40,473 bases of DNA, from positions 1-40,473 of the forward strand of contig CAYOFB010000001.1 of NCBI GenBank assembly GCA_964403145.1, read 5' to 3'. Below are positions 5,632 through 20,949 of this stretch, piece after piece (within the stretch, counting starts at the first letter, position 1; every line of letters starts with the position of its first letter). Made by a program: the position numbers and the translations under genes. This DNA is from an uncultured Candidatus Bathyarchaeia archaeon (lineage in GTDB: Archaea > Thermoproteota > Bathyarchaeia > Bathyarchaeales > WUQV01). The notes beneath the pieces are model-generated. The model worked only from the letters and a program-made list of their open reading frames with translations. It was not told the DNA's origin and did not search any database.

Positions 5632-5633
5632 CC

Positions 5634-6602: not shown

Positions 6603-6643
6603 ATAATTTTAACTATTTTGCATACACGAAAATTTTCTTGGCC

Positions 6644-7720
6644 TTATTGTATTGGAAATCTGAGTATGGCAGCTATTCCTCCGATGGAAGCAAGTTTTTC
6701 GCCGGCTTCATGTTCCGCACTTATTATGATTATTTTTCCGCCCTTCTCTTCAACTTCCTTCATTAGGTTTTCAAGTTCCAGCCTTTCCTCGTCCGTTGCT
6801 TCTCTAAGTCTAATGTCTGTTAGGACCAGTTTTTCTATCGCACCGTAGCTGTTTGCAAGTTTGACCTCTTCTAGGCCGTAGGCTACTGGCTGATTTTTAC
6901 CGAGCCTTTCAAGAATTTCTTCTACTGCCTTGGTTTCCTCTACTATTCTAACATGCTCTAGGGCCTTAACAAGTATTCCGGAGCGTAGAGCCTCTTTTAT
7001 TCCAGCTAACCCGCTGTTATTCACGCTTTTCACATCTATTATTGACTTGGCAATTTCCGGCGCCTTATCTCGCACATACTCTACAAAGCCGTTCTTGATG
7101 AAGCCTACACCCAGAACAACTATCTTGTTTTTCTCCTCTTTCCAAACCTCGTTCAGCGAGTTCAACGCTTTCTTATAGAAGGCTTTAAGGGCCTCCTCCC
7201 TCCTTCCGGCCTGACGTTTGCTTGGAAGCATAACTGACTCTTCAACCTTCACGTCTAAGCCGTATTGCCTAAGCGTAGCTATACAGTAGCCCTCATCATC
7301 TATTGATAAAAGAATTATAGCTGGCGCCGCAGCTTGACTTGCTCTCTCAAGCCTTTCCAAATGATGCATATGCCATTTCGGCTTAACTATTGTTAATGGC
7401 TTGTTGACCGTTATGTTCAGCGTGTGGTGACTCCCCAATCCTATTAGGTCTTCTGGCGCGTGACAAATAATCCCATGAACCCTAAGCCTATTCAATGTTT
7501 TGTTCCAACTTACTCGCTGAACCTTCACTCCGAGGAAGACTGAGACTCTCCGAGGTTTTTGCGGTCTGCTATATTCGGTTGTTTGCTTTATTTCACGGGT
7601 TGTTTGCATGTAAACCTCATCGTTTGGATAAATTATGTTGTATAGATGCCATAAATCGTCTAAGCTCTCCGGAATCAGCTTAGCTATACCCTTCTTCAAG
7701 TCGATTTCAAGTATCTTCAA
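6644..7720 (-). CDS. pelA: archaeal Pelota (Dom34) mRNA-surveillance / ribosome-rescue factor
   Basis: 358 aa. N-terminal MKILE..DLWHLYNII, central eRF1-like domain and C-terminal GG..AILRF end, all characteristic of aPelota. Confidence 0.85.
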   Translation of the reverse strand: MKILEIDLKKGIAKLIPESLDDLWHLYNIIYPNDEVYMQTTREIKQTTEYSRPQKPRRVSVFLGVKVQRVSWNKTLNRLRVHGIICHAPEDLIGLGSHHTLNITVNKPLTIVKPKWHMHHLERLERASQAAAPAIILLSIDDEGYCIATLRQYGLDVKVEESVMLPSKRQAGRREEALKAFYKKALNSLNEVWKEEKNKIVVLGVGFIKNGFVEYVRDKAPEIAKSIIDVKSVNNSGLAGIKEALRSGILVKALEHVRIVEETKAVEEILERLGKNQPVAYGLEEVKLANSYGAIEKLVLTDIRLREATDEERLELENLMKEVEEKGGKIIIISAEHEAGEKLASIGGIAAILRFPIQ

Positions 7721-8199: not shown

Positions 8200-8922
8200 G
8201 TGATTAAATATAAAATGAAGGTTCACGAAACTGTACGAAAACTCAAAGAGCTTTATCCTAGATTTAAAGAAGAAGCTACGGAATATCTGAATAAGGCTCG
8301 AAAAATCGAAACAATGTTAGGTCCTGGAACAGCCATTTGTTATTGTTGGTTCTATTCTGTACCTCAAAGATGGACAGCACTGGAGCCAAGAATTATGAAA
8401 CTTGCTGAAGAGACAGAGTACTTTAATTTGGAGAGAATTCTGAAACTAAGGTACAGCGAACTGAAATGTTTATTTAACGGCATCGTCTTTCATAACATTA
8501 TTTCATTACAATTTAGGAGATTCTGCGGTGCAATTGCCAAAATTTATGAATCTTGGGAGAAATTTGGGAAAATACTTAAAGAAAAAGACATCGTTGCTCT
8601 TTTTCGTGAACTAAGAAACGAAAGTAACATCAGGCTAACATTCAAGAACTTATCTGCCATGAAAATTATTGTCGGACAAGATGATAATCTGTTAATACCC
8701 GATACTCACGTAGGCAATTTCCTGGGGTTAACATTTAGAGAAATAACTATGTGCAGACAAGATCCAAAAGCTTTTCTGGCGCTAATAGATCAATGCCACT
8801 TAATAACTAGAGAACTAAAAGTTTTAGGTCTTAAAGATATCTCAACTGCCAAGTGGTCATTAGCAGTATGGTTCAGCAAGTCCAAAACTTCTGCCTCTCA
8901 ATTACTGCCCTGCATTCAGTAA
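8200..8922 (+). CDS. hypothetical protein; weak resemblance to HhH-GPD-type DNA glycosylases
   Basis: 240 aa (GTG 8200, or ATG 8215). KNLSAMKIIVG-x8-LIPDTHVGNF resembles the helix plus catalytic-Asp segment (xVDTHVxR) of EndoIII/Mig/AGOG-type enzymes, but the Gly hairpin is absent. Its stop abuts the convergent MTase stop with no spacer. Confidence 0.3.
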   Translation: MIKYKMKVHETVRKLKELYPRFKEEATEYLNKARKIETMLGPGTAICYCWFYSVPQRWTALEPRIMKLAEETEYFNLERILKLRYSELKCLFNGIVFHNIISLQFRRFCGAIAKIYESWEKFGKILKEKDIVALFRELRNESNIRLTFKNLSAMKIIVGQDDNLLIPDTHVGNFLGLTFREITMCRQDPKAFLALIDQCHLITRELKVLGLKDISTAKWSLAVWFSKSKTSASQLLPCIQ

Positions 8923-10512
8923 TTACAGCCACCGGACCAAAGATGAGCCCTCAGTTTTCAATCTCCAATCGATAATAACTTTATATTCTGGATTAATTTC
9001 GTAGCCGATCCATCGTCTACCTAGTTTATTTGCAACAACTAGAGTTGTGCCCGAGCCAGCGAAGGGATCTAGTACAATATCACCTTTATTTGAGCATAAA
9101 AGTATTATTCGCTTGACTAGCTCTTCCGGATAAACAGCTGTATGTTTTATCTTTTTTTCAGCAGTAATAACTTCTATTGGTTTTCCAATATTTCCTATTT
9201 TTCTATACATTTTCCATACATTTCCTAATAGCTCGTTTCGCTCATGTAGGTAATCAACAAAGCTATTCGGAGGAGGAAGCTTGAATAAGTACCCTTTTTT
9301 CTGCTTTGTGAAGAATAAGATGTACTCATGTCGATCCGTTAGGTTCTTTGGTCCGGTGGTTGGCACAAATATTGGTTTGTGCCAGATTACAATTTCTTTC
9401 AGATAAAAACCCACATCAGTTACTGTTCTAATTATATCTTGAGGAAATAGAAGCATTTTTCCTTCGATGATTCTTTTGTTAATATTTACCCATAGACTAC
9501 CATGTGGAGTAAGAACTCTATAACACTCTTCCCAGACTTTACGCAGTCTTTCTAAATATCTATCATAACTTTCACCGAACCCTATCTGACCTTTGACACC
9601 GTAATCTCTTAATCCCCAATAGGGGGGACTCGTAATTATTAGTTGAACGGACTCATTGGGTACTTCATCCATTTTTTCGCTAGACTTATAGTAGATTCTC
9701 CCGGTAGAAACTTCAGGTATTTTTTTAAAAGACGTAGAAACTTCTTCATTCATCTCTACTATTTGGGCTTCACGATAAGCTACTTTGGAGTTGCAAGTTG
9801 AAAAATTTCTTTTTAATTTTTTTGCAACCTCTTCAAAAGGTGTACCCTCTGTAAACATCCCCAAAATCGTGTCTTGTTCATCAGAGCCAGCGAGGATGCA
9901 TCTCTCTATAACTTCATCCATTGATAATGGAATATGCCTTAACGTTACTCCTTTACGACTTTCTGTTTTCAACCAAAAATTACTAGGATTCTTTCCCTTA
10001 GGATGGTATCGACTTCTTCTTCCTCCCCCCCACTCGACATCTTTCCAGATATGTGGTTCCCTTATGCTATCGAGGTTGAATTTGTAGTTTTTGTTCTTTG
10101 ATGCAAATAGTATGCAACTATATCTATTTACAAGTCCTCTTGATAGGTTCTCCTTTTCTAGGTTGTACCAGATTATAATGTTCCTTAAATAAAAATCGAG
10201 CTTTTGTAATTCTTCCCCTACAATGAATGGAATAGGAATAAGCTCGCCGTCATAGTAGTAATTATCACAAAGCACCCAAAGAGTGCCGTCCTTTCTCAAA
10301 ACGCGGAAGCATTCGCGCCATAAATCATTCAAAGATAGCAAGTTTTCTGATAGGGCCTCTTTGAAGTTATGAGTACCATATTCTGCAAGGGTTCTCTCTA
10401 CAACGGGCAACTTAACCCAAATAAGCTGAAAAGTCTCGTTCTGAAATTTTCGAATTTGTTGTAGAACATCCTGACAGAAAATTCGCTTATCTACTTGACT
10501 ATCAATCGTCAT
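8923..10512 (-). CDS. beta-class N4-C/N6-A DNA methyltransferase with an N-terminal degenerate (pseudo-)MTase domain
   Basis: 529 aa. The C-terminal half has motif IV (LIITSPPYWGLRDYG) and motif I (VLDPFAGSGTT). The N-terminal half is paralogous (LWRECFRVLRKDGTLWV, FYLRNIIIWY, ILFASKN) but carries KLPV in place of SPPY and LGMFTEGTP in place of DPFxGSGTT. Confidence 0.8.
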   Translation of the reverse strand: MTIDSQVDKRIFCQDVLQQIRKFQNETFQLIWVKLPVVERTLAEYGTHNFKEALSENLLSLNDLWRECFRVLRKDGTLWVLCDNYYYDGELIPIPFIVGEELQKLDFYLRNIIIWYNLEKENLSRGLVNRYSCILFASKNKNYKFNLDSIREPHIWKDVEWGGGRRSRYHPKGKNPSNFWLKTESRKGVTLRHIPLSMDEVIERCILAGSDEQDTILGMFTEGTPFEEVAKKLKRNFSTCNSKVAYREAQIVEMNEEVSTSFKKIPEVSTGRIYYKSSEKMDEVPNESVQLIITSPPYWGLRDYGVKGQIGFGESYDRYLERLRKVWEECYRVLTPHGSLWVNINKRIIEGKMLLFPQDIIRTVTDVGFYLKEIVIWHKPIFVPTTGPKNLTDRHEYILFFTKQKKGYLFKLPPPNSFVDYLHERNELLGNVWKMYRKIGNIGKPIEVITAEKKIKHTAVYPEELVKRIILLCSNKGDIVLDPFAGSGTTLVVANKLGRRWIGYEINPEYKVIIDWRLKTEGSSLVRWL

Positions 10513-11368
10513 AGTTTATAACCTTGAAGATGCACTTTCCATACATTAAATTGTCTGGTTCTAATCTTCTACATATCAACTCGCGATATTCCGGATTTAT
10601 CTCGATGCCTATTGAATTTCTGTTAAGCTTCCTAGCAACTCTCATAGTAGTGCCTGAACCTACAAACGGATCCAGTACGATATCTCCTGGGTTAGAACTC
10701 ATTTTAATTATTCTTTCAATCATCGGCTCAGGGAATACACACGGATGATTTATTCCAAGTTTCTTTTTTGTCATATTATTAACTCTATCGAAATACCATA
10801 CGTCCGTAGGATTTCTTCCTTTACCTTTTATTCGTTTGTCATTTGTTAAATATGGAACGCGGATTGCATCCAAATTAAAAACGTAATTCTTTATGTCCTT
10901 TACAAACCATAAAATGGCTTCCCATCGCCCACTTAGTCGCTTTGTACAATTTTGCATGTTATGAAAATGCCATATTATCTTATTACGCAAGTAAAAGCCG
11001 CTTTTTTTAAGTAAGAAGTAAGCGTACGAGTCCAAGGGAATTATTTCCTTTGTCTTGGGATGCGGGATAGGAGAAACATTCAAAAAAAGACTTCCATTTG
11101 GGGTAAGGATTCTGAATAGTTCTCTGCCCACCGTTTCTATCATTCTTGTCCATTTTTCTAAGTTAAATTTGTCGCGGTATTTTGTTCCATATTTTTTCCC
11201 TAAACCATAAGGAGGACTCGTCACGACTAAGTTGACACTTTCATCGGGAAAAATGTTTTCGTCCTTAAGCACCTTAAGCGCATCTCCAATTATGAGAAGG
11301 TGATAAGTAGTGTTTTCTGAAATATCTTCGAAATAGATCTCTTTACTTTCGAGAGTTTTTACCCTCAT
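10502..11368 (-). CDS. beta-class DNA methyltransferase (SPPY type, N4-cytosine or N6-adenine)
   Basis: 288 aa. LVVTSPPYGLGKKYG (motif IV) precedes VLDPFVGSGTT (motif I), giving the beta-class order. Overlaps the downstream MTase by 11 nt. Confidence 0.85.
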   Translation of the reverse strand: MRVKTLESKEIYFEDISENTTYHLLIIGDALKVLKDENIFPDESVNLVVTSPPYGLGKKYGTKYRDKFNLEKWTRMIETVGRELFRILTPNGSLFLNVSPIPHPKTKEIIPLDSYAYFLLKKSGFYLRNKIIWHFHNMQNCTKRLSGRWEAILWFVKDIKNYVFNLDAIRVPYLTNDKRIKGKGRNPTDVWYFDRVNNMTKKKLGINHPCVFPEPMIERIIKMSSNPGDIVLDPFVGSGTTMRVARKLNRNSIGIEINPEYRELICRRLEPDNLMYGKCIFKVINYDD

Positions 11369-11534
11369 ATTTCTCTATCACCAATCTCCTCTTTCCTTTA
11401 TCTATTTTGATAATCACGATATCGCCCTTCTTAAACGGAAACGCAGAGTCTAACGCGATTTCGGAGGGAATATATATCCTTAATCTTCTTCCTTTACTAT
11501 CTCCGGTGATTGTAGCTTTCGATTCTAAAACCAT
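11343..11534 (-). CDS. AbrB/SpoVT-fold small DNA-binding protein, likely controller of the MTase operon
   Basis: The likely start is the internal ATG at 11534 (MVLESKATITGDSKGRRLRIYIPSEIALDSAFPFKKGDIVIIKIDKGKRRLVIEKY..), which has the looped-hinge swapped-hairpin signature. The 46 upstream codons of track ORF 11343-11672 look like AT-rich non-coding sequence. Overlaps the MTase start by 26 nt. Confidence 0.6.
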   Translation of the reverse strand: MVLESKATITGDSKGRRLRIYIPSEIALDSAFPFKKGDIVIIKIDKGKRRLVIEKYEGKNSRK

Positions 11535-11638
11535 TTTGTTACACCTTGCAACACAATTTGTAATAAAAATTGCATCAATATAAATTTTATTGTGGTGGAT
11601 GATACCTTTGAAGTATGCGCCATAGTTTATAAGCTTTA

Positions 11639-13834
11639 ATGGATATAGGAAAAATGAATAAGGGCTGTGCATTGAGTCAAGAAATGGAAAAGAGGGTTAT
11701 AGAAAAGTTTTTCCCAGTTAGATTTATCAACAACATCACAAACGTAGAAGTACACGCCAGAAAGCCTATTTATGACATCCATCGATGGTGGGCTAGAAGA
11801 CCTGGTTCAACATTTAGAGCTATAATTTTAGGTACGCTTCTTTCTGGAAACTCGGTAAACGAGGAATCATTCAAAACAATTTTTTACAGAAAGAATGATT
11901 TGAACGGCAGTATAGTTTTGGACCCGTTTTCTGGAGGAGGGACAACCATTGTAGAGGCCACTAGATTGAATTGCAATACCATAGGCATTGATATTAACCC
12001 TGTTGCATGGTTTATAACGAAAAAAGAAATAGAACATGTAAGCATTAAGAGACTAATCGAAGAATATAGAAACTTGGAAAAAAAGCTTGCACATAAAATT
12101 AAGAGATACTACGTAACTTCTTGTCCTAATTGCGGGAAAACCGCTGAAGTAGTTTACGTCTTCTGGGTGAGGAGAGTAAGATGTAGTCGATGTGGAATGG
12201 AATTTCCAAAATTTTCAGCCGTTAAGTTGGCAGATATAAGCAGGGATAAATCATGGATTTTCTGCCTATTCTGTCATACTATTTTTGCATGGAATAGAAA
12301 GGAAAGAAATATAATCTGCCCAGGATGCGGTAGGCAACTTGATATTGATAGAAGAACAAGAGACAAAAAGTACAGTTGCCCAGGTTGTGGCGCAGGACTC
12401 AGTGCCAAAGAGAGCTTACCAACTAAAAACTTTGATATGTTTGCAATTGAATACTACTGCCCGAATTGTGGAAGGAGAGGGTACAAAGCGGCTGATGCTT
12501 CTGATTATAGATTGTATGAAGAAGCGAAGAAAGAGTTTTATAAGCATAAAGACAACCTAATTTTTCCTCGTGAGGAAATCCCTCCTGGAAAAGAAGTAAA
12601 ACGTCTTTTCAAATATGGTTACAAGTTCTTTTACGAGTTCTTTAATGAGAGACAGTTGTTATGTTTATCGATTTTATTTAACGAAATATTACACATTGAA
12701 GATGATAACATTAGGGAATTTTTCTTGTTAGCATTCTCGGATTGTCTAGATTACAATAACATGTTTGCACGCTATAACTGGAAAGCACGGAAAATAGAAC
12801 CAATGTTTGCACATCATGCCTTCTATCCGAAAGATATCCCTGCCGAAAATAATGTTTGGGGGACAAGATACGGTCGCTGCTCTTTCTCAAAATGTTTTAA
12901 AAAATTAGTTAAGGCTAAGCAATATTGCGACAGACCATACGAGTTAAGAGTAATTGGAGGAAAGGCTAACAAAATCTATATCCGAAATGAAAAAATTAGA
13001 GGAAACCTTGTTGATAACTTCAAGGATTTATCTAAAGGTGGCGGAAATGTCCTTTTAAAGTGCCATGATGCTGAAGATCTATCCTTTATTCCGGATAAGT
13101 CTGTTGACGCCGTTATTACGGATCCTCCTTATTTTGATAATGTAATGTATTCTGAACTTGCGGACTTCTACTACATTTGGTTACGGATAGCTTTGGCAGA
13201 GAAATATGATATATTTAAACAAAAGTACTGCCCAAGGTCCGGGGAGGCAGTAGTAAATAAAGTACAAAGGAAAAATGAAGGGTTTTATTTGCAAAAATTA
13301 ACAAAAATCTTTAAGGAATGTTTTAGAGTATTAAAAGACAATGGTTTGCTCGTCTTTACTTTTCATCATAAAAAAATTGAAGCATGGGCTTCAACTTTAG
13401 AAGCGATATTGAACGCTAACTTTTACATAACTGCAGTATATCCTGTTTTCAGTGAAATGCGAACATCTTTTCATATATTTGGCAAAAAAGCAGTGAGTTA
13501 TGACACCATAATTGTTTGTCGGAAAAGAAAGGGTAAACTTCAGAGGGTTTCATGGAATAATTTGCTTGATGAAATCGAATCTTATGCTAAAGAAATGCTA
13601 AAGGAATTAACTAAATTCAGGAATTTGACTCCAGATGATTTATTTGTAATCATGAGAGGAAAATGCTTAGAGCTGTACTCTAAATTTTATCCCAATGTAT
13701 ACATGAATGAAGAAAAGGTGTCAATTGTGCAAGTGTTAGAATACGTTGATAAAAAGTTGGCTGAACTAATGGAAAAAACGGACGCATTTAAGAAACAAAA
13801 AATCACCTTGGATGAATTTATGCGTAATCTTTAA
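11639..13834 (+). CDS. DUF1156/COG1743-type DNA methylase with internal zinc ribbons
   Basis: 731 aa. IHRWWARRP (DUF1156 signature), VLDPFSGGGTT (motif I) near the N-terminus, and VITDPPYFDNVMYSE (motif IV) about 400 aa later. Six CxxC pairs lie between them (CPNC, CSRC, CLFC, CPGC, CPGC, CPNC). The start codon is uncertain (alternative Mets at 11654 and 11684). Confidence 0.8.
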   Translation: MDIGKMNKGCALSQEMEKRVIEKFFPVRFINNITNVEVHARKPIYDIHRWWARRPGSTFRAIILGTLLSGNSVNEESFKTIFYRKNDLNGSIVLDPFSGGGTTIVEATRLNCNTIGIDINPVAWFITKKEIEHVSIKRLIEEYRNLEKKLAHKIKRYYVTSCPNCGKTAEVVYVFWVRRVRCSRCGMEFPKFSAVKLADISRDKSWIFCLFCHTIFAWNRKERNIICPGCGRQLDIDRRTRDKKYSCPGCGAGLSAKESLPTKNFDMFAIEYYCPNCGRRGYKAADASDYRLYEEAKKEFYKHKDNLIFPREEIPPGKEVKRLFKYGYKFFYEFFNERQLLCLSILFNEILHIEDDNIREFFLLAFSDCLDYNNMFARYNWKARKIEPMFAHHAFYPKDIPAENNVWGTRYGRCSFSKCFKKLVKAKQYCDRPYELRVIGGKANKIYIRNEKIRGNLVDNFKDLSKGGGNVLLKCHDAEDLSFIPDKSVDAVITDPPYFDNVMYSELADFYYIWLRIALAEKYDIFKQKYCPRSGEAVVNKVQRKNEGFYLQKLTKIFKECFRVLKDNGLLVFTFHHKKIEAWASTLEAILNANFYITAVYPVFSEMRTSFHIFGKKAVSYDTIIVCRKRKGKLQRVSWNNLLDEIESYAKEMLKELTKFRNLTPDDLFVIMRGKCLELYSKFYPNVYMNEEKVSIVQVLEYVDKKLAELMEKTDAFKKQKITLDEFMRNL

Positions 13835-15306
13835 GCTGATGCAAAAAAGTTTGTGATTTTCTTTCCAGATGTCTCTTGGAATATGTGGCTGTAGACTTTG
13901 AATAGGTCCCTTCTCAATTCATTATCTGAGAACTCTTCAATAAGCTGCTTTAGTGCTTCGCCATCTTTTATCATTCGAAAAACGCTCTTACACATATAAT
14001 CATGTTGTAAAACAGCATGTGCATACAGTAGAATTCTTGCAAAAAGATAATCTTCGCCTCCATTTGAATAGAACTCTTTGATTTCTTTTATGCTATATTT
14101 TCTACATACATAGCAGTCACATACTACATCATCGCTAACTCTATGGAGTTGTATATATCTGAGTACATTTTTCTTGTTATCTTTTATGACATCTCCTTTA
14201 GAGTCAACTGCTGGAATAAGATATTTGGAAAAGCTTATGCCCTTGACGTTTTGATCAAAGACAAAGTCTATGCTTTCTTTTTCTCCATCGATGGCTCTTC
14301 TCCATGGAGAATGACAATCAAATGAATCAACTCCCGCTGCAACCAATGGAATTATATTAAAGACGTCTCCAATGCCCAGACCATGAATAGGTCTTTGGTC
14401 ACTAATCTTGAGAAGTTCCTGTCTAATGGCTTTCGCAGCTTTACCGACAATTAGTCCAGCTTTTACTCTCCGTCTAGCATCTGAAGGTATTTCCCACATT
14501 TCATTGCTCTTTGTTCTATAATCTGCTAGCCCTGCAATTGCAAAACCGTCAAATTTTTCTCCAATTTTTTCTTCTAGCTTAAGAATCATCCTCAAATATT
14601 CACGGAATTGATCGGGTGTTTCGCCACGAAGCGGAACATATATCATCGTTACTTTATTTTTTCCAAATTTCTTCATATTTTCCAACGTTGACCTGACTAA
14701 ACGCATATTGCTCTCTTTATCCTTACTGAAATGGGCGGATAATCTTCTATAAATTTCGTCTCTAGTCTCTCCCTTCCTATATGTGTACTTCCTGGCGAAA
14801 TCCATCGCTATTTCAATATTGAAATTATGTTTAAATGCAAATTTCATATAATCTGGAATCATTTTCTCAAAAGCTGCGACTACTTCCTCCTCCCTTTGTG
14901 CATTTTCAATTTCATCTCTTAGAAAATTACCCGAACCTGAGTCGAGCATTATTATAGGATTCCACGTTGTTTCTCTGAATTGTAAGTTCTCCCGTACAAA
15001 CCCTTCGTCAAAGAAACATTTTCTAATAAATTTAATGAAGTCAACCATGTCACCAAAATTCTCTAGCTGGCTTGTCCATTTTTCAGTTTTAAACGTACCC
15101 CCAACTGTAAGGTAGTAGTAATTAAATAATGTTGGGATGTTGCTTTGTTCGAACAAATTAATATAGGTGATAATACGGTAAAGGTCACTGGCACCTCCGC
15201 CGAAATCACATGTCATAAAATAGCAGGGGGTAGTTCTTTCCTTCGAGGGAAATACGAATCTTCCAGCCCTAGCTCCTTCTTTTGACCATGTCAAAATCTC
15301 AAACAT
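13831..15306 (-). CDS. tRNA-guanine-transglycosylase-superfamily protein without PUA domain (DpdA-like candidate DNA transglycosylase)
   Basis: From ATG 15306 the product reads MFEILTWSKEGARAGRF..TTPCYF (TGT N-terminus). It also has MLDSGSGNF (DSGGFQ-like catalytic Asp), HGLGIGDVFNIIPLVAAGVDSFDCHSP (GVG..GxDxFDC) and VCDCYVCRKYS...YAHAV (CxCxxC...H zinc site). The track ORF begins 4 codons earlier at GTG 15318. Confidence 0.8.
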   Translation of the reverse strand: MFEILTWSKEGARAGRFVFPSKERTTPCYFMTCDFGGGASDLYRIITYINLFEQSNIPTLFNYYYLTVGGTFKTEKWTSQLENFGDMVDFIKFIRKCFFDEGFVRENLQFRETTWNPIIMLDSGSGNFLRDEIENAQREEEVVAAFEKMIPDYMKFAFKHNFNIEIAMDFARKYTYRKGETRDEIYRRLSAHFSKDKESNMRLVRSTLENMKKFGKNKVTMIYVPLRGETPDQFREYLRMILKLEEKIGEKFDGFAIAGLADYRTKSNEMWEIPSDARRRVKAGLIVGKAAKAIRQELLKISDQRPIHGLGIGDVFNIIPLVAAGVDSFDCHSPWRRAIDGEKESIDFVFDQNVKGISFSKYLIPAVDSKGDVIKDNKKNVLRYIQLHRVSDDVVCDCYVCRKYSIKEIKEFYSNGGEDYLFARILLYAHAVLQHDYMCKSVFRMIKDGEALKQLIEEFSDNELRRDLFKVYSHIFQETSGKKITNFFASA

Positions 15307-16141
15307 CTTTATCACCACACAACGATTTTATTTCATCTATAAATTCCTTAAAATTACCCATCTCAAGGAGTGGAAGGTACACTTTATTTAGCTCTCCCAC
15401 CAGTATCTCCCTATCGCCTTTTCTAACGAAGTCACCAGCCCTTTCGCGTCTACGCCATTCTACACCAACTTCATCTATATACTCGTATACTCGCTCAGCA
15501 GACATGTAAAATATTCCCTTAATACACGGATAATCTAGCCAATACACATAAAAAACTGGCACTCTAATTTTAGTCTGAACTATTTTTCTCTGAGCTTTGA
15601 TTTTCTCACCTACGTCCAGCGTTGTAGACCCTTCGTAGCATTCTCTACCAGGTATTTTTTCAAAAACTTTCACGAAAGGGGCTGTCAGATATTTCACTTC
15701 GCAATATGCTACTACCTTCGTCTTATTATTATCCAACACCTCAATATCTGGATAGTTCCCACCTTCTGCTGTTCTTCGACACGGTACCTTTAGATGAGTA
15801 TTTAAAAAGTCCATTAATACGTCCTCAAATTGCTTCCCCAGAACTACATCAAGCTTTTTAATGGACTCATTTCTTGGATTCAGATAGAATTTCCAGCATT
15901 CGGAGCACTCGGCCTTCAGTCTTGGAATCAAGTGGAAAAAGTTCTGTCTAGGAAGAATTTGTTTCTTTTTTCTTTGATTTTCATACATTATCCTATAACA
16001 TTGTTCATTGAAATCATCAAAAGTAAACTGTCTCTTGTGTAATGGGAAGTTTTTCGTGAATTTCCTCAACTTACTGGAATAAAGTGATAAAAGTCTTTTA
16101 TAGAGCTCTATGCTCTGGGTATAAGATTCGTTATCCTCCAT
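15299..16141 (-). CDS. PD-(D/E)XK restriction-endonuclease-like nuclease
   Basis: 280 aa. QFEDVL ... GGNYPDIEVLDNNKTKVVAYCEVKY gives the E...PD...ExK catalytic arrangement with canonical spacing. Its TGA lies inside ATGTTTGA, an 8-nt overlap with the TGT-like start. Confidence 0.7.
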   Translation of the reverse strand: MEDNESYTQSIELYKRLLSLYSSKLRKFTKNFPLHKRQFTFDDFNEQCYRIMYENQRKKKQILPRQNFFHLIPRLKAECSECWKFYLNPRNESIKKLDVVLGKQFEDVLMDFLNTHLKVPCRRTAEGGNYPDIEVLDNNKTKVVAYCEVKYLTAPFVKVFEKIPGRECYEGSTTLDVGEKIKAQRKIVQTKIRVPVFYVYWLDYPCIKGIFYMSAERVYEYIDEVGVEWRRRERAGDFVRKGDREILVGELNKVYLPLLEMGNFKEFIDEIKSLCGDKDV

Positions 16142-16302: not shown

Positions 16303-18750
16303 TTAATAAGTGACTAACTCCATTTTTCTCCTTAAAATAACTTTTCTTCTCCCTTTAGAAATTATGTCCACTAAGCCCTTACATTTTAAAGATTTTAGAA
16401 CGCTATATGTTGTGCTCCACCCATATCCACTCAACTCCTTTAATTGTTTGATCGTCGGTTCCTTTACACTCTCAATTATCCTCAGTATTTTCTTCTCTTT
16501 CTCCGTTAATCTCCAAATGTATTCTCCGAAGTTAATGAAGTAAGGCTTTGCGTCATTGTATTCATGGAAAAAGAATAGGGCTATGCCCGTTGGAAGTCTA
16601 TTCATAATTTTGGCGTATTCTGTTCCGTAGCTTTGGGCTATTCTCCTCAAATCTGGCTCATATCCGGTTCTGAAGTGAAACCTTAGATTTACAAAACCTC
16701 TGATTAAGCCTATGTCTGGAATTGTGTGCGAGATTAATATGAAGCCAACTCCGTACTTCCTGAGTTCTCTCATGCACCTCTCCAAAATCGAATTTACTTT
16801 TGGGATCAGCCTGTGAAATTCCTCCATAACAATAAGAAACTTCAGCCTCTGACCCAACTTTTTCGGTATTTTTTCATAGATGCTCTCCAGAAAGCTGGCA
16901 GCAGCTTCTCCCTTCTTATCCTCGCTAATATCCCCAAGATCAAGGATCTTAATTCCCTTTCCTAAGTCATCCACATTCTGTATCCCTACAATGACTTCCC
17001 CCTCAACAATGTTTTTCCAAGCTCCCGTAGGATCTATCACAATGATACTTGCTTTTTCCTTCAGTTTTTCAACAATTATCCTAGCGGCTGTCGTCTTTCC
17101 AGAGCCTATTACTCCGGTTATCAATGCGTTCAGAACCAGCTTATCCTTTTCCAGATAGGCTGGAATGTCGAGCTTTCTGAAGTTCGAGCCCACAACACTG
17201 CCTATCAGAATACCTTCGCGGGGAATTTTGTCCTTTGAAGGGGCTGGCACCGGAATAAGCTCTTTCATCATGCCAAAATGTTTGTATATCCTATCAAGCA
17301 GGCTTTTTATGGCTCTGGCGGGCGCATGCGATGCTTGAATTGTAGAGCCTTCAATCTTGAAGCTCTCGCCCAATCTCGGTACATATAGCTGCTCTGCGGT
17401 TTCGATAAGAGGTTGGATTTTCGGATGCTCCTCAGCATAGCTGAGCATTGCATTCGGATTATCCAAGCCCGTGATCTCGCTCAGAACTGATATCGCTGGA
17501 TAAGGGAGATCTTCGAGAAGTAAATGATGCTTCTGCGCGGCCCTCGGCTTTATGGCCTTCGCCTCAGTTTCAAGATCCATCAGAACAAATTTAATTGCTT
17601 CCGGCAGATCATCTTTCCTGACTACGTAGGTTGTCGACTTCACTGAGAGTATGAATGCGATGGCAACTCCTTTCTCGTACCATCCTTTGATTATGGAACT
17701 CTCCGATTCGTACTCTTTCTTTAGCTCCTTGTATCTCCTTTCGAGTTCTTTGAGCTTCTGTTTCCTCTCCTTCATAAACCGACTAATATCTCTCCTTTCA
17801 AACGGATTGTATGCGTAAATCAATCCTATCTGCAAGTGCCTCAGCCTCTTCCTCTCCTCATCCATTTCCCTGCTCGTCTTTTCGAGTTCATATACTGTCG
17901 CTTTCCTGTGATAGGGAACCATGTTCGGCGTTATCCTGTTAACGAAAACCACCTGAAGCCTGAATTCCTTCACAGCATTCTTCAAATAATCATAGAAGGC
18001 GCCGACGTCCTCTATATCAGACTTAAAATCCTCAATATCAGTAACGAAAAAGTGCTTGCTCCCCTTAACCGCATAAAAGTTCTCATCAAGAATTACAACC
18101 TCAACAATTGATCTGCTCTCAGAATGCCAGAAAAGGAACGAACACAAACTGTCGAGGCTAAAGCTTCCAAAGGGAATCAAACCAAGCTTGCTGGTCACCT
18201 TAAGCAAATCTTTTGGTGGATCCATGTAATTTGAAATACTTTCAGCTGTATTTCTTTCAAACTTCCTTGGATCCCCGAACACCTTCTTAATAAAGGACTC
18301 GTTTCTCTCCTTTTCCAGCCTTTCGAGATATTTTACATCATCCAGCTCCTTTAAATTCCAGTAGACCGATTTTGGAAGGATGACATAGCCATACTTGCTC
18401 AAAACTGATCTGAGAATAGGAATGGTGGAGTAATTAATCTCGATTGTTTCCACCAGATCCTTAACTGCAGCTTCTCCTCTTGATCTAACTTCCCCAATGA
18501 ATAGATTTTGAAGCTGAGGGTTCAGGAAGTCTCTATAGGACTGCTCATGCAATAGAGATTTCAAAATAAGCTTTTTCTCAGCTGCTTCCTCTTCCTTTAA
18601 AACATGAAAACCTGCTCCTTTAATTTTCTCAATAATCTTCCCGATGAGTCTCTGATCTAGATTTACGGTTCCAAGTAGAGCTGCAACTTCTTTCGGGCTG
18701 GATTTCCTAAGCTTTCTAATGAACATCCTTGAAAAAAGCTTTCCAAGCAT
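16303..18750 (-). CDS. HerA/FtsK-like (DUF87-type) P-loop ATPase with a roughly 500-aa unknown N-terminal region and a C-terminal winged helix
   Basis: 815 aa. Walker A LITGVIGSGKTT, Walker B LKFLIVMEEFHRL, and a C-terminal wHTH-like ILRIIESVKEPTIKQLKELSGYGWSTTYSVLKSLKCKGLV. I recognise no motif in the N-terminal 500 aa. Confidence 0.7.
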   Translation of the reverse strand: MLGKLFSRMFIRKLRKSSPKEVAALLGTVNLDQRLIGKIIEKIKGAGFHVLKEEEAAEKKLILKSLLHEQSYRDFLNPQLQNLFIGEVRSRGEAAVKDLVETIEINYSTIPILRSVLSKYGYVILPKSVYWNLKELDDVKYLERLEKERNESFIKKVFGDPRKFERNTAESISNYMDPPKDLLKVTSKLGLIPFGSFSLDSLCSFLFWHSESRSIVEVVILDENFYAVKGSKHFFVTDIEDFKSDIEDVGAFYDYLKNAVKEFRLQVVFVNRITPNMVPYHRKATVYELEKTSREMDEERKRLRHLQIGLIYAYNPFERRDISRFMKERKQKLKELERRYKELKKEYESESSIIKGWYEKGVAIAFILSVKSTTYVVRKDDLPEAIKFVLMDLETEAKAIKPRAAQKHHLLLEDLPYPAISVLSEITGLDNPNAMLSYAEEHPKIQPLIETAEQLYVPRLGESFKIEGSTIQASHAPARAIKSLLDRIYKHFGMMKELIPVPAPSKDKIPREGILIGSVVGSNFRKLDIPAYLEKDKLVLNALITGVIGSGKTTAARIIVEKLKEKASIIVIDPTGAWKNIVEGEVIVGIQNVDDLGKGIKILDLGDISEDKKGEAAASFLESIYEKIPKKLGQRLKFLIVMEEFHRLIPKVNSILERCMRELRKYGVGFILISHTIPDIGLIRGFVNLRFHFRTGYEPDLRRIAQSYGTEYAKIMNRLPTGIALFFFHEYNDAKPYFINFGEYIWRLTEKEKKILRIIESVKEPTIKQLKELSGYGWSTTYSVLKSLKCKGLVDIISKGRRKVILRRKMELVTY

Positions 18751-18868
18751 GAATTTGCGAAAGCAAATCTATGGCAAAAATGATTGGGTGATATTTGGAG
18801 GGTACCCATTATGAGAGGTAATTTATTAAATCGGTAGGAGTTTAAACATTTAAATTAGGTGGGCCAGA

Positions 18869-20494
18869 ATGGCGAAGCCGGGTATCAGCCAGGAACCGAT
18901 TGGTAGACTTGTGGAAGGAGTTGTGAGTGGAAAATACGACATCCCGGAATTTCAAAGGGAGTTTGTTTGGACAAAGAACCAAGTTGCCAATCTCCTTGAT
19001 TCGCTGATAAGGGGATACCCAATAGGATCGATTTTGATATGGGACCTAAGTGACTACACTCAAGGTAAGCATGTGTATGAAAACAAACCGAAGGAATGGA
19101 TTGTCGACGGCCAACAAAGACTGGTTGCGCTGTGTATTCTAAATCTGAAGAAGCCATATTGGCTGGAGATCGATAAATGGCAAAGGTATCTGGAAAAGTA
19201 CAAAATAAAGGTAAACATACTAACTCTGGAAGTTTCACTCGAGTATTCGGCCATAAGAAAGAATCCAGAGTGGGTTTACCCCTACGAGATTTTCAACGCA
19301 AATGACCTGAGAACGTTCGCGGAGCGATTGGCAACGGAGATGAATAGACCAGACCTGTTTACGATAATATACGATAATGCAAAGAAGATACGTGACATCC
19401 TTGAGATCGATGTTCCAATTATTAAAGTAAATCACTCATTAGAGAACATAGCAACGATTTTTGAAAGAATTAATAGTGCAGGTACGCGAATTAAGCAAGC
19501 AGATATAACCCTAGGATACATCGCAGCATACAACAAAGGTTGGGTTAGAGACAAGTTCATGGCTTATGTCGAAGACCTAGATGAGGAGGGATTCTACTTT
19601 GAACCAACGCTTTTAATAAGAGCTATCACCGCGGTCGGGGAGGACAAGGCAGTATTGAGAGAGGTGAGCGAAAGCTTTCTAAGGAACGAGAATAATTCGC
19701 TTGAGCAAGCATTTGAAAGATTTAAACATTGTTTGAACAGGTTGATACGTGAATTCAGAAATGTCGGAATCCTTACCTCTAAATTGATCTACGCAAAAAA
19801 TACAATCATTCCAATGATTTACCTTTACAATACATTCGAGGATGAATTTGAGTTTGGTAAGGCTTTCTTCTTTTTCTTGGCAGCTCTTTGGAGAGGCAGG
19901 TATAGCGGGGCATCAGAGACAACGTTGCAGGAAGATATAAACAAAATAAAGAATGCTGCGAGCTTCGAAGATGCGATAAAGAATTTGGTATATCCTCTTG
20001 GGATGAACAAGGTTGATAAGGAAACTGTTAGAAACGCAACGCACTACCAAGGTGAAGGGAGGTTCCTTAAGTTGATGCTTTATTTGATAGCATACCAAAA
20101 TGGGGCAGTTGACTGGTTTACGAAGGATAGGTTAGGTTATACGAGACATAATGAAATTAACAAAGAATTCAATTTTGAAGAACACCATTTCTTCCCGCGA
20201 AGCCTGCTTAAGGGGGTAGGGTTCGAAAGAGATGAATGGAACTTGTTAGCAAATATAGCTTTCATCAATCCGGGGACAAACAAAAGGCTTAGGGACCAGC
20301 CCTACACTTACATCAAAAAGTATGGGATAGAAACAACTGAGTTGGAAAAACAACTGATTCCGTTGGATGAAGATCTGTGGAAACTGGAAAACTACAGGAA
20401 GTTTATAGATGTACGATCTCAGTTAATTGCGGATGGCATTAACCAATTCCTTGAATCTCTATACCCATCACTTTTCAATGAACTGTGCAAATAA
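18869..20494 (+). CDS. DUF262/DUF1524 (GmrSD-family) putative modification-dependent type IV restriction enzyme
   Basis: 541 aa. N-terminal YDIPEFQREFVW and VDGQQRL (DUF262 ParB-like NTPase domain). C-terminal EEHHFFPRS...LLANIAFINPGTNKR (DUF1524 His-Me finger). Confidence 0.8.
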   Translation: MAKPGISQEPIGRLVEGVVSGKYDIPEFQREFVWTKNQVANLLDSLIRGYPIGSILIWDLSDYTQGKHVYENKPKEWIVDGQQRLVALCILNLKKPYWLEIDKWQRYLEKYKIKVNILTLEVSLEYSAIRKNPEWVYPYEIFNANDLRTFAERLATEMNRPDLFTIIYDNAKKIRDILEIDVPIIKVNHSLENIATIFERINSAGTRIKQADITLGYIAAYNKGWVRDKFMAYVEDLDEEGFYFEPTLLIRAITAVGEDKAVLREVSESFLRNENNSLEQAFERFKHCLNRLIREFRNVGILTSKLIYAKNTIIPMIYLYNTFEDEFEFGKAFFFFLAALWRGRYSGASETTLQEDINKIKNAASFEDAIKNLVYPLGMNKVDKETVRNATHYQGEGRFLKLMLYLIAYQNGAVDWFTKDRLGYTRHNEINKEFNFEEHHFFPRSLLKGVGFERDEWNLLANIAFINPGTNKRLRDQPYTYIKKYGIETTELEKQLIPLDEDLWKLENYRKFIDVRSQLIADGINQFLESLYPSLFNELCK

Positions 20495-20498
20495 GCAT

Positions 20499-20750
20499 TT
20501 ACGATATGAGCCTCTCAACTTTTGCTCTCCTGTAAGCTGAGGCAAATAAGCATATGAGTAGGAATATTTCGATTGGCCTTTGGAGGATTGCAATAAGGAT
20601 AAAGAACAATGTTAGGGGCTTTGATGGATAACTCGTTATCCAGTCTCCAAGATCCGCAAGTAATTTGAAAACAGCCATCGATGCTACAGAAATGAAACCG
20701 GAAATTATATGGAACATCTTATCACCCCGGAGAGCAGATAACCTAAGCAT
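20499..20750 (-). CDS. small membrane protein (2-3 TM), unknown
   Basis: 83 aa (or 72 aa from ATG 20717, which is preceded by GGTGAT). Hydrophobic segments IISGFISVASMAVFKLL and LTLFFILIAIL..IFLLICLFASA. Overlaps the upstream small ORF by 8 nt. Confidence 0.45.
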   Translation of the reverse strand: MLRLSALRGDKMFHIISGFISVASMAVFKLLADLGDWITSYPSKPLTLFFILIAILQRPIEIFLLICLFASAYRRAKVERLIS

Positions 20751-20949
20751 TATTTTCCTCTGCCTTTCTTTGCCTCAAAATTCCAACTATCTTTGAAATC
20801 TTCTCCTTGATTTTATCAACTTTCTTTTCCTTTTCTTCAGTAGTTATCGTGAAGATCCTGGTTTCTGTCTTTATTGTTGTTATCCCTCCCCTCAGATAAT
20901 TCTTTGTTTCAACAATCTCCTTACTCCAGATCTTAATCATGATAACCAC
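20743..20949 (-). CDS. small charged protein, unknown
   Basis: 68 aa. Beta-rich N-terminal half and a K/E-rich helical tail. Coupled to the downstream membrane ORF. Confidence 0.4.
   Translation of the reverse strand: MVIMIKIWSKEIVETKNYLRGGITTIKTETRIFTITTEEKEKKVDKIKEKISKIVGILRQRKAEENNA

What the first reader, a model, noticed from the sequence alone, without database searches (positions are those of the whole stretch)
13831..16141. PD-(D/E)XK nuclease coupled to a PUA-less TGT-family protein: candidate 7-deazaguanine DNA modification-restriction pair
Seen in sequence:
- A 280-aa protein carries E...PD...ExK (YPDIEV...CEVKY).
- Its stop overlaps by 8 nt (ATGTTTGA) the start of a 491-aa protein.
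- That protein has the TGT N-terminus, a DSGxG catalytic segment, GxDxFDC and the CxCxxC...H zinc site.
- It shows no recognisable C-terminal PUA/tRNA-binding extension, and AGLADY replaces the GGLxxGE substrate motif.
- The pair sits inside a restriction-modification island.

Established knowledge:
- DpdA-type TGT paralogs insert preQ0-derived 7-deazaguanines into DNA in the bacterial dpd system and in phages.
- Archaea already make preQ0 for archaeosine.

Inference: this is a minimal two-gene R-M-like module in which a transglycosylase, not a methyltransferase, marks self DNA. It lacks the dpdB-K partners of the known system, so it would be a new architecture.
Basis: partly seen in the sequence, partly recalled or inferred. 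Interest (0 to 1): 0.8.

Follow-up and report, generated by a model that had tools for sequence, protein, structure and literature searches.

The report
Restriction-modification cassette with a TGT-like enzyme
The nuclease and TGT-like genes are real, but they belong to a conserved, apparently undescribed four-gene restriction-modification cassette that always carries its own DNA methyltransferases, so the TGT-like enzyme is an extra, unexplained activity rather than a replacement for methylation.

Summary
On the minus strand, a 280-aa PD-(D/E)xK nuclease ("X", 15299-16141) overlaps by 8 nt a 491-aa TGT-superfamily protein (13831-15306). That protein keeps all three catalytic Asp residues and the Zn site and has no PUA domain.

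The interpretation as a minimal two-gene module, with TGT marking self DNA instead of a methyltransferase, is not supported.
- Of 29 non-redundant relatives with enough flanking DNA, 28 have X within 200 nt and 28 have at least two N6/N4-type DNA methyltransferases within 4.5 kb.
- Gene order varies between loci, but the four genes stay together.
- The window carries three methyltransferases beside the pair: 8923-10512, 10502-11368 and 11639-13834.
- No preQ0-synthesis, DpdB or DpdC gene recurs near the cassette.

The TGT-like protein belongs to a small separate clade of about 49 clusters among 1.84 billion. It scores far below the Tgt, TgtA and DpdA model cut-offs and is absent from phage, plasmid and viral collections. 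The cassette occurs in several archaeal and bacterial phyla.

My preferred reading (about 0.4) is that the TGT-like protein works on the restriction side, excising or exchanging guanine in unmethylated DNA alongside X. Rivals are a second self-mark (about 0.25) and a tRNA-directed abortive-infection effector (about 0.12). I found no published description. Function remains untested.

The parts
15299..16141 (-). X: 280-aa PD-(D/E)xK nuclease, the presumed restriction endonuclease. It has an N-terminal helical domain (about residues 1-116) and a nuclease core with E106, P131-D132 and E148-x-K150.
   Evidence: ORF. Motif conservation in 32 homologues. Model pLDDT 92.5 and Foldseek matches to PD-(D/E)xK nucleases. 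The family has 108 clusters, all unnamed. Two members carry a weak precomputed Pfam 'MjaV' hit.
13831..15306 (-). TGT-like protein, 491 aa. It is a TIM-barrel transglycosylase fold with an N-terminal beta lid, three invariant catalytic Asp residues (D122, D169, D330), a CxCxxC...H Zn site and no PUA domain. Its start overlaps the stop of X by 8 nt.
11639..13834 (+). DUF1156-type DNA methyltransferase, 731 aa, with DPFSGGGT and DPPY motifs (N6-adenine type) and internal zinc ribbons. It converges on the TGT-like gene and their stop codons overlap by 4 nt.
   Evidence: Pfam N6_N4_Mtase and DUF1156, NCBIfam DUF1156_antiphage, and PADLOC HmaB and DUF1156_MTase. Motifs. Stop-codon overlap. The same gene sits next to the TGT-like gene in L001, L002, L021-L023, L025, L026 and L028.
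11343..11672 (-). Small AbrB/MazE (SpoVT)-like DNA-binding ORF upstream of methyltransferase A, a possible controller protein. The real start is probably internal, near 11534, because the L001 homologue has only 61 aa.
   Evidence: Pfam MazE_antitoxin E=4e-5 on residues 61-103. A 61% identical homologue occupies the same position in L001.
10502..11368 (-). Methyltransferase A, 288 aa, beta-class N6/N4 DNA methyltransferase with SPPY (motif IV) and DPFVGSGT (motif I). The motifs suggest N4-cytosine specificity.
   Evidence: Pfam N6_N4_Mtase E=2e-59. Sequence. An orthologue is present in most TGT-containing cassettes, though some DUF1156-type loci lack it. Its distances co-vary best with those of X (r=0.69).
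8923..10512 (-). Methyltransferase B, 529 aa. The C-terminal half is an active-looking SPPY / DPFAGSGT domain. The N-terminal half is a degenerate methyltransferase-like copy.
   Evidence: Pfam N6_N4_Mtase E=2e-74 in two stretches. Sequence. Orthologues.
8200..8922 (+). 240-aa ORF of unknown function converging on methyltransferase B. Whether it belongs to the cassette is uncertain.
   Evidence: A 44% identical homologue occupies the same position in L001. No hit in Pfam, NCBIfam or PADLOC.

Best explanation
The pair is half of a conserved four-gene, type II-like restriction-modification cassette. The cassette comprises a PD-(D/E)xK endonuclease (X), a catalytically intact enzyme from a separate clade of the TGT superfamily, and two beta-class SPPY (N4-cytosine-type) DNA methyltransferases. 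In the window's subfamily a DUF1156 DPPY methyltransferase is added to these or replaces one of them.

Shown:
- the architecture and its conservation;
- the folds of both proteins;
- the catalytic residues;
- separation from the Tgt, TgtA and DpdA families;
- the absence of recurrent preQ0, DpdB or DpdC partners.

Inferred:
- The methyltransferases supply the self-mark.
- The TGT-like enzyme works on the restriction side with X, as a second 'R' subunit in a 2R+2M layout. It would flip a guanine in unmethylated recognition sites and break its glycosidic bond through the Asp330 nucleophile. The result would be an abasic site or a covalent enzyme-DNA intermediate that helps X convert the site into a double-strand break, or a harmless guanine-for-guanine exchange.
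For: - Cassette: of 29 non-redundant TGT-like genes with enough flank, 28 have X within 200 nt and 28 have at least two methyltransferases within 4.5 kb. At least six different gene orders occur.
- Taxa: Bathyarchaeota, Nitrososphaerota, Asgard archaea, DPANN archaea, Chloroflexota, Patescibacteria, Elusimicrobia and Bacteroidota.
- Coupling: in most loci the stop of X and the start of the TGT-like gene overlap or lie within 4 nt, while the methyltransferases form a separate, usually convergent unit.
- Active chemistry: D122, D169 and D330 are invariant in 56 of 56 sequences, and the Zn site is kept in 53-55 of 56. D330 aligns with the Asp280 nucleophile motif of Z. mobilis TGT.
- Never orphan: no informative locus clearly lacks methyltransferases. 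In L036 and L060, the loci showing none, the gene lies at a contig end, so upstream methyltransferases may be cut off.
- 2R+2M versus 1R+1M: every TGT-containing cassette has at least two methyltransferases. The only intact X loci without a TGT-like gene have one unrelated DPPY methyltransferase.
- Evolutionary rate: the TGT-like protein diverges fastest (mean distance 1.54), then X (1.07), then methyltransferase B (0.85) and A (0.55). Fast divergence is typical of restriction components (general knowledge).
- No special base needed: no QueC, QueD, QueE, FolE, DpdB or DpdC gene appears among the annotated neighbours or among recurrent families in 111 further flanking ORFs.
- Precedent: sequence-specific restriction glycosylases of the R.PabI family, cited in PMC12707154.
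Against: - No TGT-fold enzyme is known to act as a DNA glycosylase or restriction subunit. Every characterised DNA-directed homologue (DpdA) inserts 7-deazaguanines (PMC10164549, PMC10516641).
- X has a complete nuclease site of its own and works genetically without the TGT-like protein in one lineage. A second R activity is therefore not obviously needed.
- In some loci the TGT-like gene is coupled to a methyltransferase rather than to X (L002, L012, L033, L045, L073).
- The 2R+2M versus 1R+1M contrast rests on a single TGT-less lineage.
- The rate comparison is near saturation at 28-35% identity.
- Nothing here shows that the substrate is DNA.
Confidence: 0.4

Rival explanations
1. Second self-mark. 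The TGT-like enzyme exchanges guanine in host DNA for preQ0 or another 7-deazaguanine at specific sites, in addition to methylation. The cassette would then carry two chemically different marks, either protecting against X or hardening host DNA against other nucleases.
For: - All characterised DNA-context TGT homologues are base-inserting modification enzymes (PMC10164549, PMC10516641). A BREX-related system is also predicted to use TGT for self-marking (PMC12839542).
- The full transglycosylase catalytic set and the guanine-binding pocket elements are conserved: D169, N/Q200, the GGL motif and L310.
- The window's host is an archaeon, and archaea normally make preQ0 for archaeosine (general knowledge).
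- In some loci the TGT-like gene is co-transcribed with a methyltransferase (L002, L012, L033, L045, L073).
Against: - At least two dedicated methyltransferases always accompany it, so a further protective mark is redundant.
- X exists without it.
- No preQ0-synthesis, DpdB ATPase or DpdC gene recurs nearby. DNA-inserting enzymes are usually co-located with such genes (10.64898/2026.04.15.718813).
- Many carriers are DPANN archaea or Patescibacteria, lineages generally poor in biosynthesis (general knowledge, not tested here).
- It scores far below the DpdA cut-offs and differs structurally from DpdA.
- It usually sits downstream of the nuclease gene, an unsafe position for a protective enzyme.
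Confidence: 0.25
2. Guarded abortive-infection effector, analogous to the anticodon nuclease PrrC embedded in the EcoprrI R-M locus. The TGT-like enzyme would be held inactive by X or the methyltransferases. When a virus inhibits the R-M enzymes, it would be released to remove guanine from tRNA (G34 or G15) and stop translation.
For: - Overall it resembles tRNA TGTs more than DpdA. It keeps the N-terminal beta lid and lacks the DpdA-specific four-helix bundle in insertion Ins8 (PMC10164549).
- Its profile matches bacterial TGT at 4e-8 but DpdA only at 0.18.
- It needs no special base.
- Tight coupling to X, fast evolution and never being an orphan all fit a guarded toxin.
- PrrC and RloC are precedents (general knowledge).
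Against: - It lacks the PUA and C-terminal tRNA-binding domains of arcTGT.
- Its association with the R-M genes is obligate (28 of 29), which differs from the sporadic PrrC pattern as I recall it (general knowledge).
- TGT-like presence goes with two SPPY methyltransferases, whereas the TGT-less X loci have one DPPY methyltransferase. This link to the methyltransferase set is unexplained by a tRNA target.
- No TGT enzyme is known to depurinate tRNA hydrolytically.
Confidence: 0.12
3. The TGT-like gene is an ordinary archaeosine or queuosine tRNA enzyme (arcTGT, ArcS or Tgt) that happens to lie beside an R-M system. Alternatively, X/TGT-like and the methyltransferases are two unrelated neighbouring modules.
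For: - It hits the Pfam TGT family.
- Source databases label some relatives 'queuine/archaeosine tRNA-ribosyltransferase'.
- The window lies in a crowded defence island where chance adjacency is common.
Against: - Scores are 17 to 33 bits against cut-offs of 307 to 350 for the tRNA enzyme models.
- There is no PUA domain.
- The family has only about 49 clusters among 1.84 billion and a patchy distribution across both domains, unlike a housekeeping gene.
- The four genes stay together through at least six gene orders in more than 30 independent loci.
Confidence: 0.03

Closest known systems
Heteromeric type II R-M systems with two R and two M genes for asymmetric sites (BbvCI, Bpu10I, BtsI/BsrDI type)
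   Same: It is a compact cassette with a PD-(D/E)xK endonuclease, a second translationally coupled non-methyltransferase gene and two paralogous methyltransferases. The methyltransferases usually converge on the R operon.
   Different: In those systems the second R subunit is another nuclease. Here it is a TGT-fold transglycosylase homologue. Recognition site, subunit contacts and cleavage are all untested.
Dpd system (DpdA/DpdB/DpdC plus DpdD-K) and phage DpdA1-4
   Same: It is a TGT-superfamily enzyme in a defence or DNA-modification context. The three catalytic Asp residues and the CxCxxC...H Zn site are conserved (PMC10164549).
   Different: - Score of 15.8 bits against a cut-off of 200 on the DpdA model, and E=0.18 against the DpdA structure sequence.
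- It keeps the N-terminal beta lid that DpdA lacks and has no Ins8 helical bundle.
- No hit to DUF6610, the Pfam family of DpdA4.
- No DpdB, DpdC or helicase partners and no preQ0 genes nearby.
- Absent from phage and viral collections.
- Always accompanied by methyltransferases.
Restriction glycosylases (R.PabI / R.HpyAXII family)
   Same: In these R-M systems the restriction step is methyl-sensitive base excision, helped by endonuclease activity (references in PMC12707154). This is the functional analogy I propose.
   Different: R.PabI has a different fold (half-pipe), excises adenine and is a single R gene with one methyltransferase. No homology to the TGT-like protein.
tRNA-guanine transglycosylases (bacterial Tgt, archaeal TgtA/arcTGT, QTRT1)
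   Same: These are the closest structures: Foldseek E about 1e-12 and TM about 0.7 normalised by the target. They share the catalytic motifs DSG..., GGL, G-x-D-x-F-D and the Zn site.
   Different: - Only 13-19% identity.
- Far below the family cut-offs.
- No PUA or C1-C3 domains.
- Gly instead of the conserved aromatic residue four positions after the first catalytic Asp (DSGSGN versus DSGG[YF]Q, the latter from memory).
- Extra insertions at about residues 262-300 and 340-390.
- Defence-cassette context.
BREX-related capture (BRC) systems with TGT and GNAT modules
   Same: This is another predicted defence system that recruited a TGT homologue without DpdB or DpdC (PMC12839542). A HerA-like ATPase also lies next to X in the window.
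   Different: BRC is built around PglZ, BrxC-like, STAND and HerA components. None of these is conserved with the present cassette, and the HerA-like neighbour is not conserved in other loci.

Membership tests
TGT superfamily (Pfam PF01702) | Profile match above the gathering score and a TIM-barrel TGT fold | tested here: met
   52.5 bits against a cut-off of 26.3, E=5e-14. Foldseek matches to TGT, arcTGT and QTRT1 at E about 1e-12.
TGT superfamily (Pfam PF01702) | Three catalytic or substrate Asp residues and the CxCxxC...H zinc site | tested here: met
   D122, D169 and D330 are invariant in 56 of 56 sequences. C396, C398, C401 and H430 are kept in 53-55 of 56. D330 aligns with the Asp280 motif of Z. 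mobilis TGT.
Bacterial queuine/preQ1 Tgt (TIGR00430) | Score at or above the equivalog cut-off | tested here: not met
   33.4 bits against a cut-off of 306.75.
Archaeosine TgtA/arcTGT (TIGR00432) and ArcS | Score at or above the cut-off, and C-terminal C1-C3/PUA tRNA-binding domains | tested here: not met
   17.4 bits against a cut-off of 350. No PUA hit. The model ends in a helical tail after the Zn site.
DpdA (NF041059; PADLOC DpdA) | Score at or above the equivalog cut-off | tested here: not met
   15.8 bits against a cut-off of 200. PADLOC DpdA E=7e-4 over about 100 residues only. The family profile scores E=0.18 against the DpdA structure sequence 7ui4.
DpdA (NF041059; PADLOC DpdA) | No N-terminal beta-sheet lid, and an enlarged Ins8 with a four-helix bundle (PMC10164549) | tested here: not met
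   The model has strands at residues 2-33 forming a lid. The stretch between D330 and C396 holds only short strands and loops, not a helical bundle.
DpdA (NF041059; PADLOC DpdA) | Genomic association with dpdB, dpdC or preQ0-synthesis genes | tested here: not met
   None in the window. None in nine annotated loci. None among recurrent families in 111 further flanking ORFs.
DpdA (NF041059; PADLOC DpdA) | Inserts a 7-deazaguanine into DNA | not testable with these tools
   Needs LC-MS/MS of DNA or an in-vitro exchange assay.
DpdA4 (DUF6610, archaeal viruses) | Match to PF20314 | tested here: not met
   The Pfam scan at E up to 0.1 returns only PF01702. DpdA4 is defined as DUF6610 in PMC10516641.
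Type II restriction-modification system | PD-(D/E)xK endonuclease gene adjacent to DNA methyltransferase gene(s), conserved as a unit | tested here: met
   X motifs and fold. Methyltransferase motifs SPPY/DPPY and DPFxGxGT. Conserved adjacency.
Type II restriction-modification system | Sequence-specific cleavage that is blocked by the cognate methylation | not testable with these tools
   Needs expression, cleavage assays and methylome sequencing.
MjaV restriction-enzyme family (Pfam PF27324) | Profile match of X to PF27324 | tested here: inconclusive
   Two X homologues carry a precomputed PF27324 hit, and P0031's is marked 'weak'. The Pfam copy available here gives no hit for X or for those homologues.
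Restriction glycosylase (R.PabI family) | Homology or shared fold with R.PabI | tested here: not met
   The fold is the TGT TIM barrel. The resemblance I propose is functional only.

The most novel reading that the evidence does not exclude
A TGT-fold enzyme has been recruited as a methylation-sensitive, guanine-directed restriction subunit. It would excise or covalently capture guanine in unmethylated DNA and work with a PD-(D/E)xK nuclease. This would be the first transglycosylase-fold restriction enzyme and a second, independent origin of restriction glycosylases. It is spread across archaea and bacteria, including DPANN and CPR lineages.
Probability: 0.3. Interest if true: 0.85.

Novelty: new variant of a known kind. 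Interest (0 to 1): 0.7.

Why it matters
TGT-family enzymes are known to act on DNA only as DpdA, which inserts 7-deazaguanines in the Dpd system and in phages. This cassette contains a third, separate clade that is catalytically intact and is locked into a compact R-M cassette with its own methyltransferases. It has no deazaguanine-pathway partner.

Both leading outcomes would be new:
- a restriction mechanism based on guanine excision or exchange, or
- an R-M system that writes two chemically different marks.

The cassette is small (four genes, about 4-5 kb in most loci), so it can be tested directly in E. coli. It also cautions against inferring DNA deazaguanine modification from any TGT homologue found in a defence island.

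Tried and rejected
- **Two-gene reading.** Rejected after mapping 75 related loci with local HMMs.
- **DpdA, DpdA4 or phage origin.** Rejected by model scores, PHROGs, and phage, plasmid and IMG/VR searches.
- **DpdM-type link between the methyltransferases and dPreQ1 methylation.** DpdM is DUF3109, not PF01555 (PMC10516641). I found nothing linking the cassette methyltransferases to dPreQ1 methylation.
- **Gene fusions that might reveal the partner.** None found. All full-length family members are 417-486 aa.
- **Mirror-tree test for the TGT-like protein's partner.** Uninformative. The TGT-like protein correlates weakly with everything (r 0.35-0.46), partly because distances are saturated and modules appear to be swapped. 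X and methyltransferase A correlate well (0.69).
- **Naming X through PDB or a profile search.** No sequence hit in PDB. All 108 clusters are 'hypothetical'. The 'MjaV' label could not be reproduced.
- **MADS-like system.** The DUF1156 methyltransferase, the HerA-like ATPase and the kinase give weak mad2, mad8 and mad6 hits. These genes are not contiguous and are not conserved with the cassette elsewhere, so I did not adopt this reading.
- **HerA-like neighbour (16303-18750) as a cassette member.** Not conserved in other loci.
- **Promoter and terminator scan.** Counts are at the shuffle expectation, and the scan is not suited to archaea.
- **Literature.** Five full-text searches and the papers I read turned up no description of this cassette.
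- **Whole-genome check for arcTGT and preQ0 genes in carrier genomes.** Not possible, because only flanks of up to 10 kb can be fetched.

Full report
**1. What is in the window**

The window is a complete 40,473-bp contig of a Candidatus Bathyarchaeota MAG. Its ThiL protein carries that organism name in NCBI, and its pelota falls in a cluster whose named members are Bathyarchaeota.

Both ORFs of the finding lie on the minus strand.
- X spans 15299..16141 (280 aa).
- The TGT-like ORF spans 13831..15306 (491 aa from the ATG; an alternative GTG lies at 15318).
- The minus-strand sequence reads ...GAT AAA G**ATG TTT GA**G ATT..., so the 8-nt overlap ATGTTTGA is correct.

**2. The two proteins**

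*X.* X has no hit in Pfam, NCBIfam, PADLOC or PHROGs. Even so, it belongs to a coherent family: 67 clusters with a single-sequence query and 108 with a profile, all labelled 'hypothetical'.
- E106, P131, E148 and K150 are invariant and D132 is nearly so.
- Its AlphaFold model (pLDDT 92.5) has an N-terminal helical domain and an alpha/beta core.
- The core matches PD-(D/E)xK nucleases such as the SPARDA nuclease subunit, Hjc, D212, DpnI and HincII.
- Two family members carry a precomputed Pfam 'MjaV' restriction-enzyme hit, and P0031's is marked weak. I could not reproduce either hit.

*The TGT-like protein.*
- It passes the Pfam TGT threshold at E=5e-14.
- It scores far below the curated cut-offs for bacterial Tgt (33 against 307 bits), archaeal TgtA (17 against 350) and DpdA (16 against 200).
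- A family profile matches PDB sequences of bacterial TGT at 4e-8, arcTGT at 6e-6 and DpdA (7ui4) only at 0.18.
- The model (pLDDT 88.6) superposes on TGT, arcTGT and QTRT1 at E about 1e-12 and TM about 0.7.
[quoted passage not shown] According to the DpdA structure paper, DpdA lacks this lid. The model also lacks DpdA's four-helix bundle in insertion Ins8 (PMC10164549).
- It has no PUA domain.
- Across 56 distinct relatives, D122 (DSGSGN), D169, H308, L310, D330 (GVDSFDC), R337 and Q434 are invariant, and the Zn ligands are kept in 53-55. The enzyme is therefore very probably catalytically active on a guanine-like base.
- An exhaustive profile search of 1.84 billion representatives finds about 49 clusters at E up to 1e-30. 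A gap then separates these from canonical TGTs at 1e-12 to 1e-6. No fusion proteins appear.
- The family is absent from phage genomes, plasmids, IMG/VR contigs and PHROGs.

**3. Context decides the interpretation**

I fetched contexts of homologues in three ways: by exact protein look-up, from GTDB genomes using the X profile, and from metagenomes using the TGT-like profile. I annotated all 75 loci with local HMMs for X, the TGT-like protein and the methyltransferases.

Of 29 non-redundant TGT-like genes with enough flanking DNA:
- 28 have X within 200 nt;
- 28 have at least two N6/N4 DNA methyltransferases within 4.5 kb.

In L036, the locus in that set showing no methyltransferase (like L060, where the gene is cut by the contig start), the gene lies at a contig end, so upstream methyltransferases may be cut off.

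Gene order varies (> and < show gene direction):

| Order | Loci |
|---|---|
| X> TGT> <A <B | majority |
| X> TGT> <DUF1156 >A >B | window type |
| X> TGT> A> B> | L024, L035 |
| X> A> B> TGT> | L045, L073 |
| A> B> X> TGT> | L039 |
| A> B> <X TGT> | L033 |
| <TGT X> ... <B <A | L010, L012 (Asgard) |

The four genes remain together through all these rearrangements, which is strong evidence for a functional unit.

Named carriers include Bathyarchaeota, Nitrososphaerota, Promethearchaeota, Woesearchaeota, Aenigmatarchaeota, Micrarchaeia, Chloroflexota, Patescibacteria, Elusimicrobia and Bacteroidota. In *Myroides albus* the TGT-like copy is very divergent and has lost the Zn site.

**4. The methyltransferases**

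In every TGT-containing cassette both core methyltransferases carry SPPY (motif IV) and DPFxGSGT (motif I). This motif pattern is typical of N4-cytosine enzymes. That inference rests on motifs only.

The window's subfamily adds or substitutes a DUF1156 methyltransferase with DPPY. In the window its stop codon overlaps that of the TGT-like gene by 4 nt, convergently.

The window thus holds three methyltransferases:
- B at 8923-10512;
- A at 10502-11368;
- the DUF1156 enzyme at 11639-13834.

It also holds a small AbrB/MazE-like ORF (11343-11672), possibly a controller, and a conserved 240-aa ORF (8200-8922). Both have homologues at the same positions in L001.

The only intact X loci without a TGT-like gene are three Bathyarchaeota loci (L005, L006, L011). 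These have one unrelated DPPY methyltransferase.

**5.

The idea that the transglycosylase replaces methylation as the self-mark in a minimal two-gene module does not hold. Methyltransferases are always present, and X can exist without the TGT-like protein.

Nothing specific to 7-deazaguanine biology accompanies the cassette.
- No QueC, QueD, QueE, FolE, DpdB or DpdC gene appears in the window or in nine loci with precomputed Pfam annotation.
- None is recurrent among 111 further flanking ORFs, where only mobile-element and defence genes recur. That tool lists only the top 25 of 77 families, so a single occurrence cannot be excluded.
- A recent survey notes that DNA-inserting enzymes are usually co-located with the biosynthetic genes.

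**6. Most likely mechanism**

Firm points:
- This is a type II-like R-M cassette.
- X is the endonuclease.
- The methyltransferases provide the self-mark.
- The TGT-like protein is a conserved, catalytically intact third activity directed at a guanine-like base.

Beyond that I can only weigh readings. I favour a restriction-side role (about 0.4) for these reasons:
- In most loci the gene is translationally coupled to X, while the methyltransferases form a separate unit.
- It never clearly occurs without methyltransferases, as expected for a potentially harmful activity.
- Its presence goes with two methyltransferases and its absence with one. This is the 2R+2M layout of heteromeric enzymes for asymmetric sites.
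- It is the fastest-evolving cassette gene: mean distance 1.54, against X 1.07, B 0.85 and A 0.55. That matches restriction rather than modification components.
- It needs no special base.

Chemically, the first TGT half-reaction breaks the N-glycosidic bond and forms a covalent Asp-sugar intermediate (PMC10164549). On deoxyribose, without an incoming 7-deazaguanine, this would end in an abasic site, a trapped adduct, or a harmless guanine re-insertion. This step is my inference. Restriction glycosylases (R.PabI) are a functional precedent.

Against this reading:
- No TGT-fold glycosylase is known.
- X has its own complete active site.
- Some loci couple the TGT-like gene to a methyltransferase.
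- The 1R+1M contrast rests on one lineage.

**7. Rivals**

- *Second self-mark by 7-deazaguanine insertion (about 0.25).* This is the default analogy with DpdA and with the predicted BRC systems. It is weakened by the points in section 5.
- *PrrC-like tRNA-directed abortive-infection effector guarded by the R-M proteins (about 0.12).* It fits the greater resemblance to tRNA TGTs than to DpdA, and the lack of a base requirement. It does not explain the obligate linkage or the link to the methyltransferase set.
- *Housekeeping arcTGT or chance adjacency (about 0.03).* Contradicted by the model scores, the rarity of the family and the synteny.

**8. Novelty**

Five full-text searches and the papers I read gave no description of a nuclease + TGT-like + two-methyltransferase cassette. 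The known DNA-context subfamilies are bDpdA and DpdA1-4 (PMC10516641), and this clade fits none of them. I rate it a new variant of a known kind: an R-M system with an unprecedented accessory enzyme. Its function is open and directly testable.

Noticed in passing
window 26690-36834 (minus strand); L001 1-6775: A high-GC block (51-57% against 34-46% elsewhere) encodes an AAA/wHTH protein, a 242-aa ORF and a long pAgo (32635-35013; PADLOC pAgo E=1e-44). NurA, HerA, Mre11 and Rad50 follow. L001 has the same order (Piwi, a 369-aa ORF in NurA's position, HerA, Mre11, Rad50) immediately followed by X, the TGT-like gene and the DUF1156 methyltransferase. So pAgo is physically linked to the DNA-end-resection operon in two genomes, and the R-M cassette sits downstream of rad50 in both.
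   Followed up: partly
window 16303-25873: The rest of the low-GC island contains four notable genes:
- a HerA/CedD-like ATPase with a C-terminal winged helix (16303-18750; PADLOC mad8 2e-11);
- a GmrSD/HEC-05-like type IV restriction enzyme (18869-20494);
- a tyrosine integrase with a zinc ribbon (21615-22814);
- a Ser/Thr kinase (22908-24659; PADLOC mad6 1.5e-38).

Together with the DUF1156 methyltransferase (mad2 6e-17), this gives three weak MADS-like hits. The genes are not contiguous.
   Followed up: partly
window 8200-8922 (+); L001 13530-14261 (-): A 240-aa ORF with no family hit converges on methyltransferase B. It has a 44% identical homologue at the same position in L001. It could be a further cassette component or a second nuclease.
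   Followed up: partly
L012 6524-7762 and 12594-15397; L033 7025-9824: The Loki-type locus L012 carries two different TGT-like genes. One diverges from X. The other is followed by a 385-aa SPPY methyltransferase of its own. L033 has the same TGT-like > 385-aa methyltransferase pair. This suggests a TGT-like plus methyltransferase sub-module that moves between cassettes.
   Followed up: no
L019 8777-9904 (Myroides albus): The 375-aa ORF between X and the two methyltransferases is missed by the TGT HMM and by Pfam. By eye and in the alignment, however, it is a degenerate TGT-like protein. It keeps the three Asp residues, reads DVGTT instead of DSGSG, and has lost the CxCxxC Zn site.
   Followed up: partly
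window 1054-1131 (-), 1202-7720: The core-genome flank encodes tRNA-Thr(CGU), ThiL, an AmmeMemoRadiSam-type radical SAM enzyme, an NcsA/TtuA-type tRNA thiolation enzyme, a nucleotidyltransferase, a GNAT protein and pelota. No arcTGT or preQ0-synthesis gene is on this contig.
   Followed up: yes
L018 7983-9346 (Pyrinomonadaceae): This is a decayed version of the cassette. X is truncated to 182 aa and is followed by a 274-aa protein that, by eye, carries an HNH-like motif (HIIPWSH), and by a single SPPY methyltransferase.
   Followed up: no
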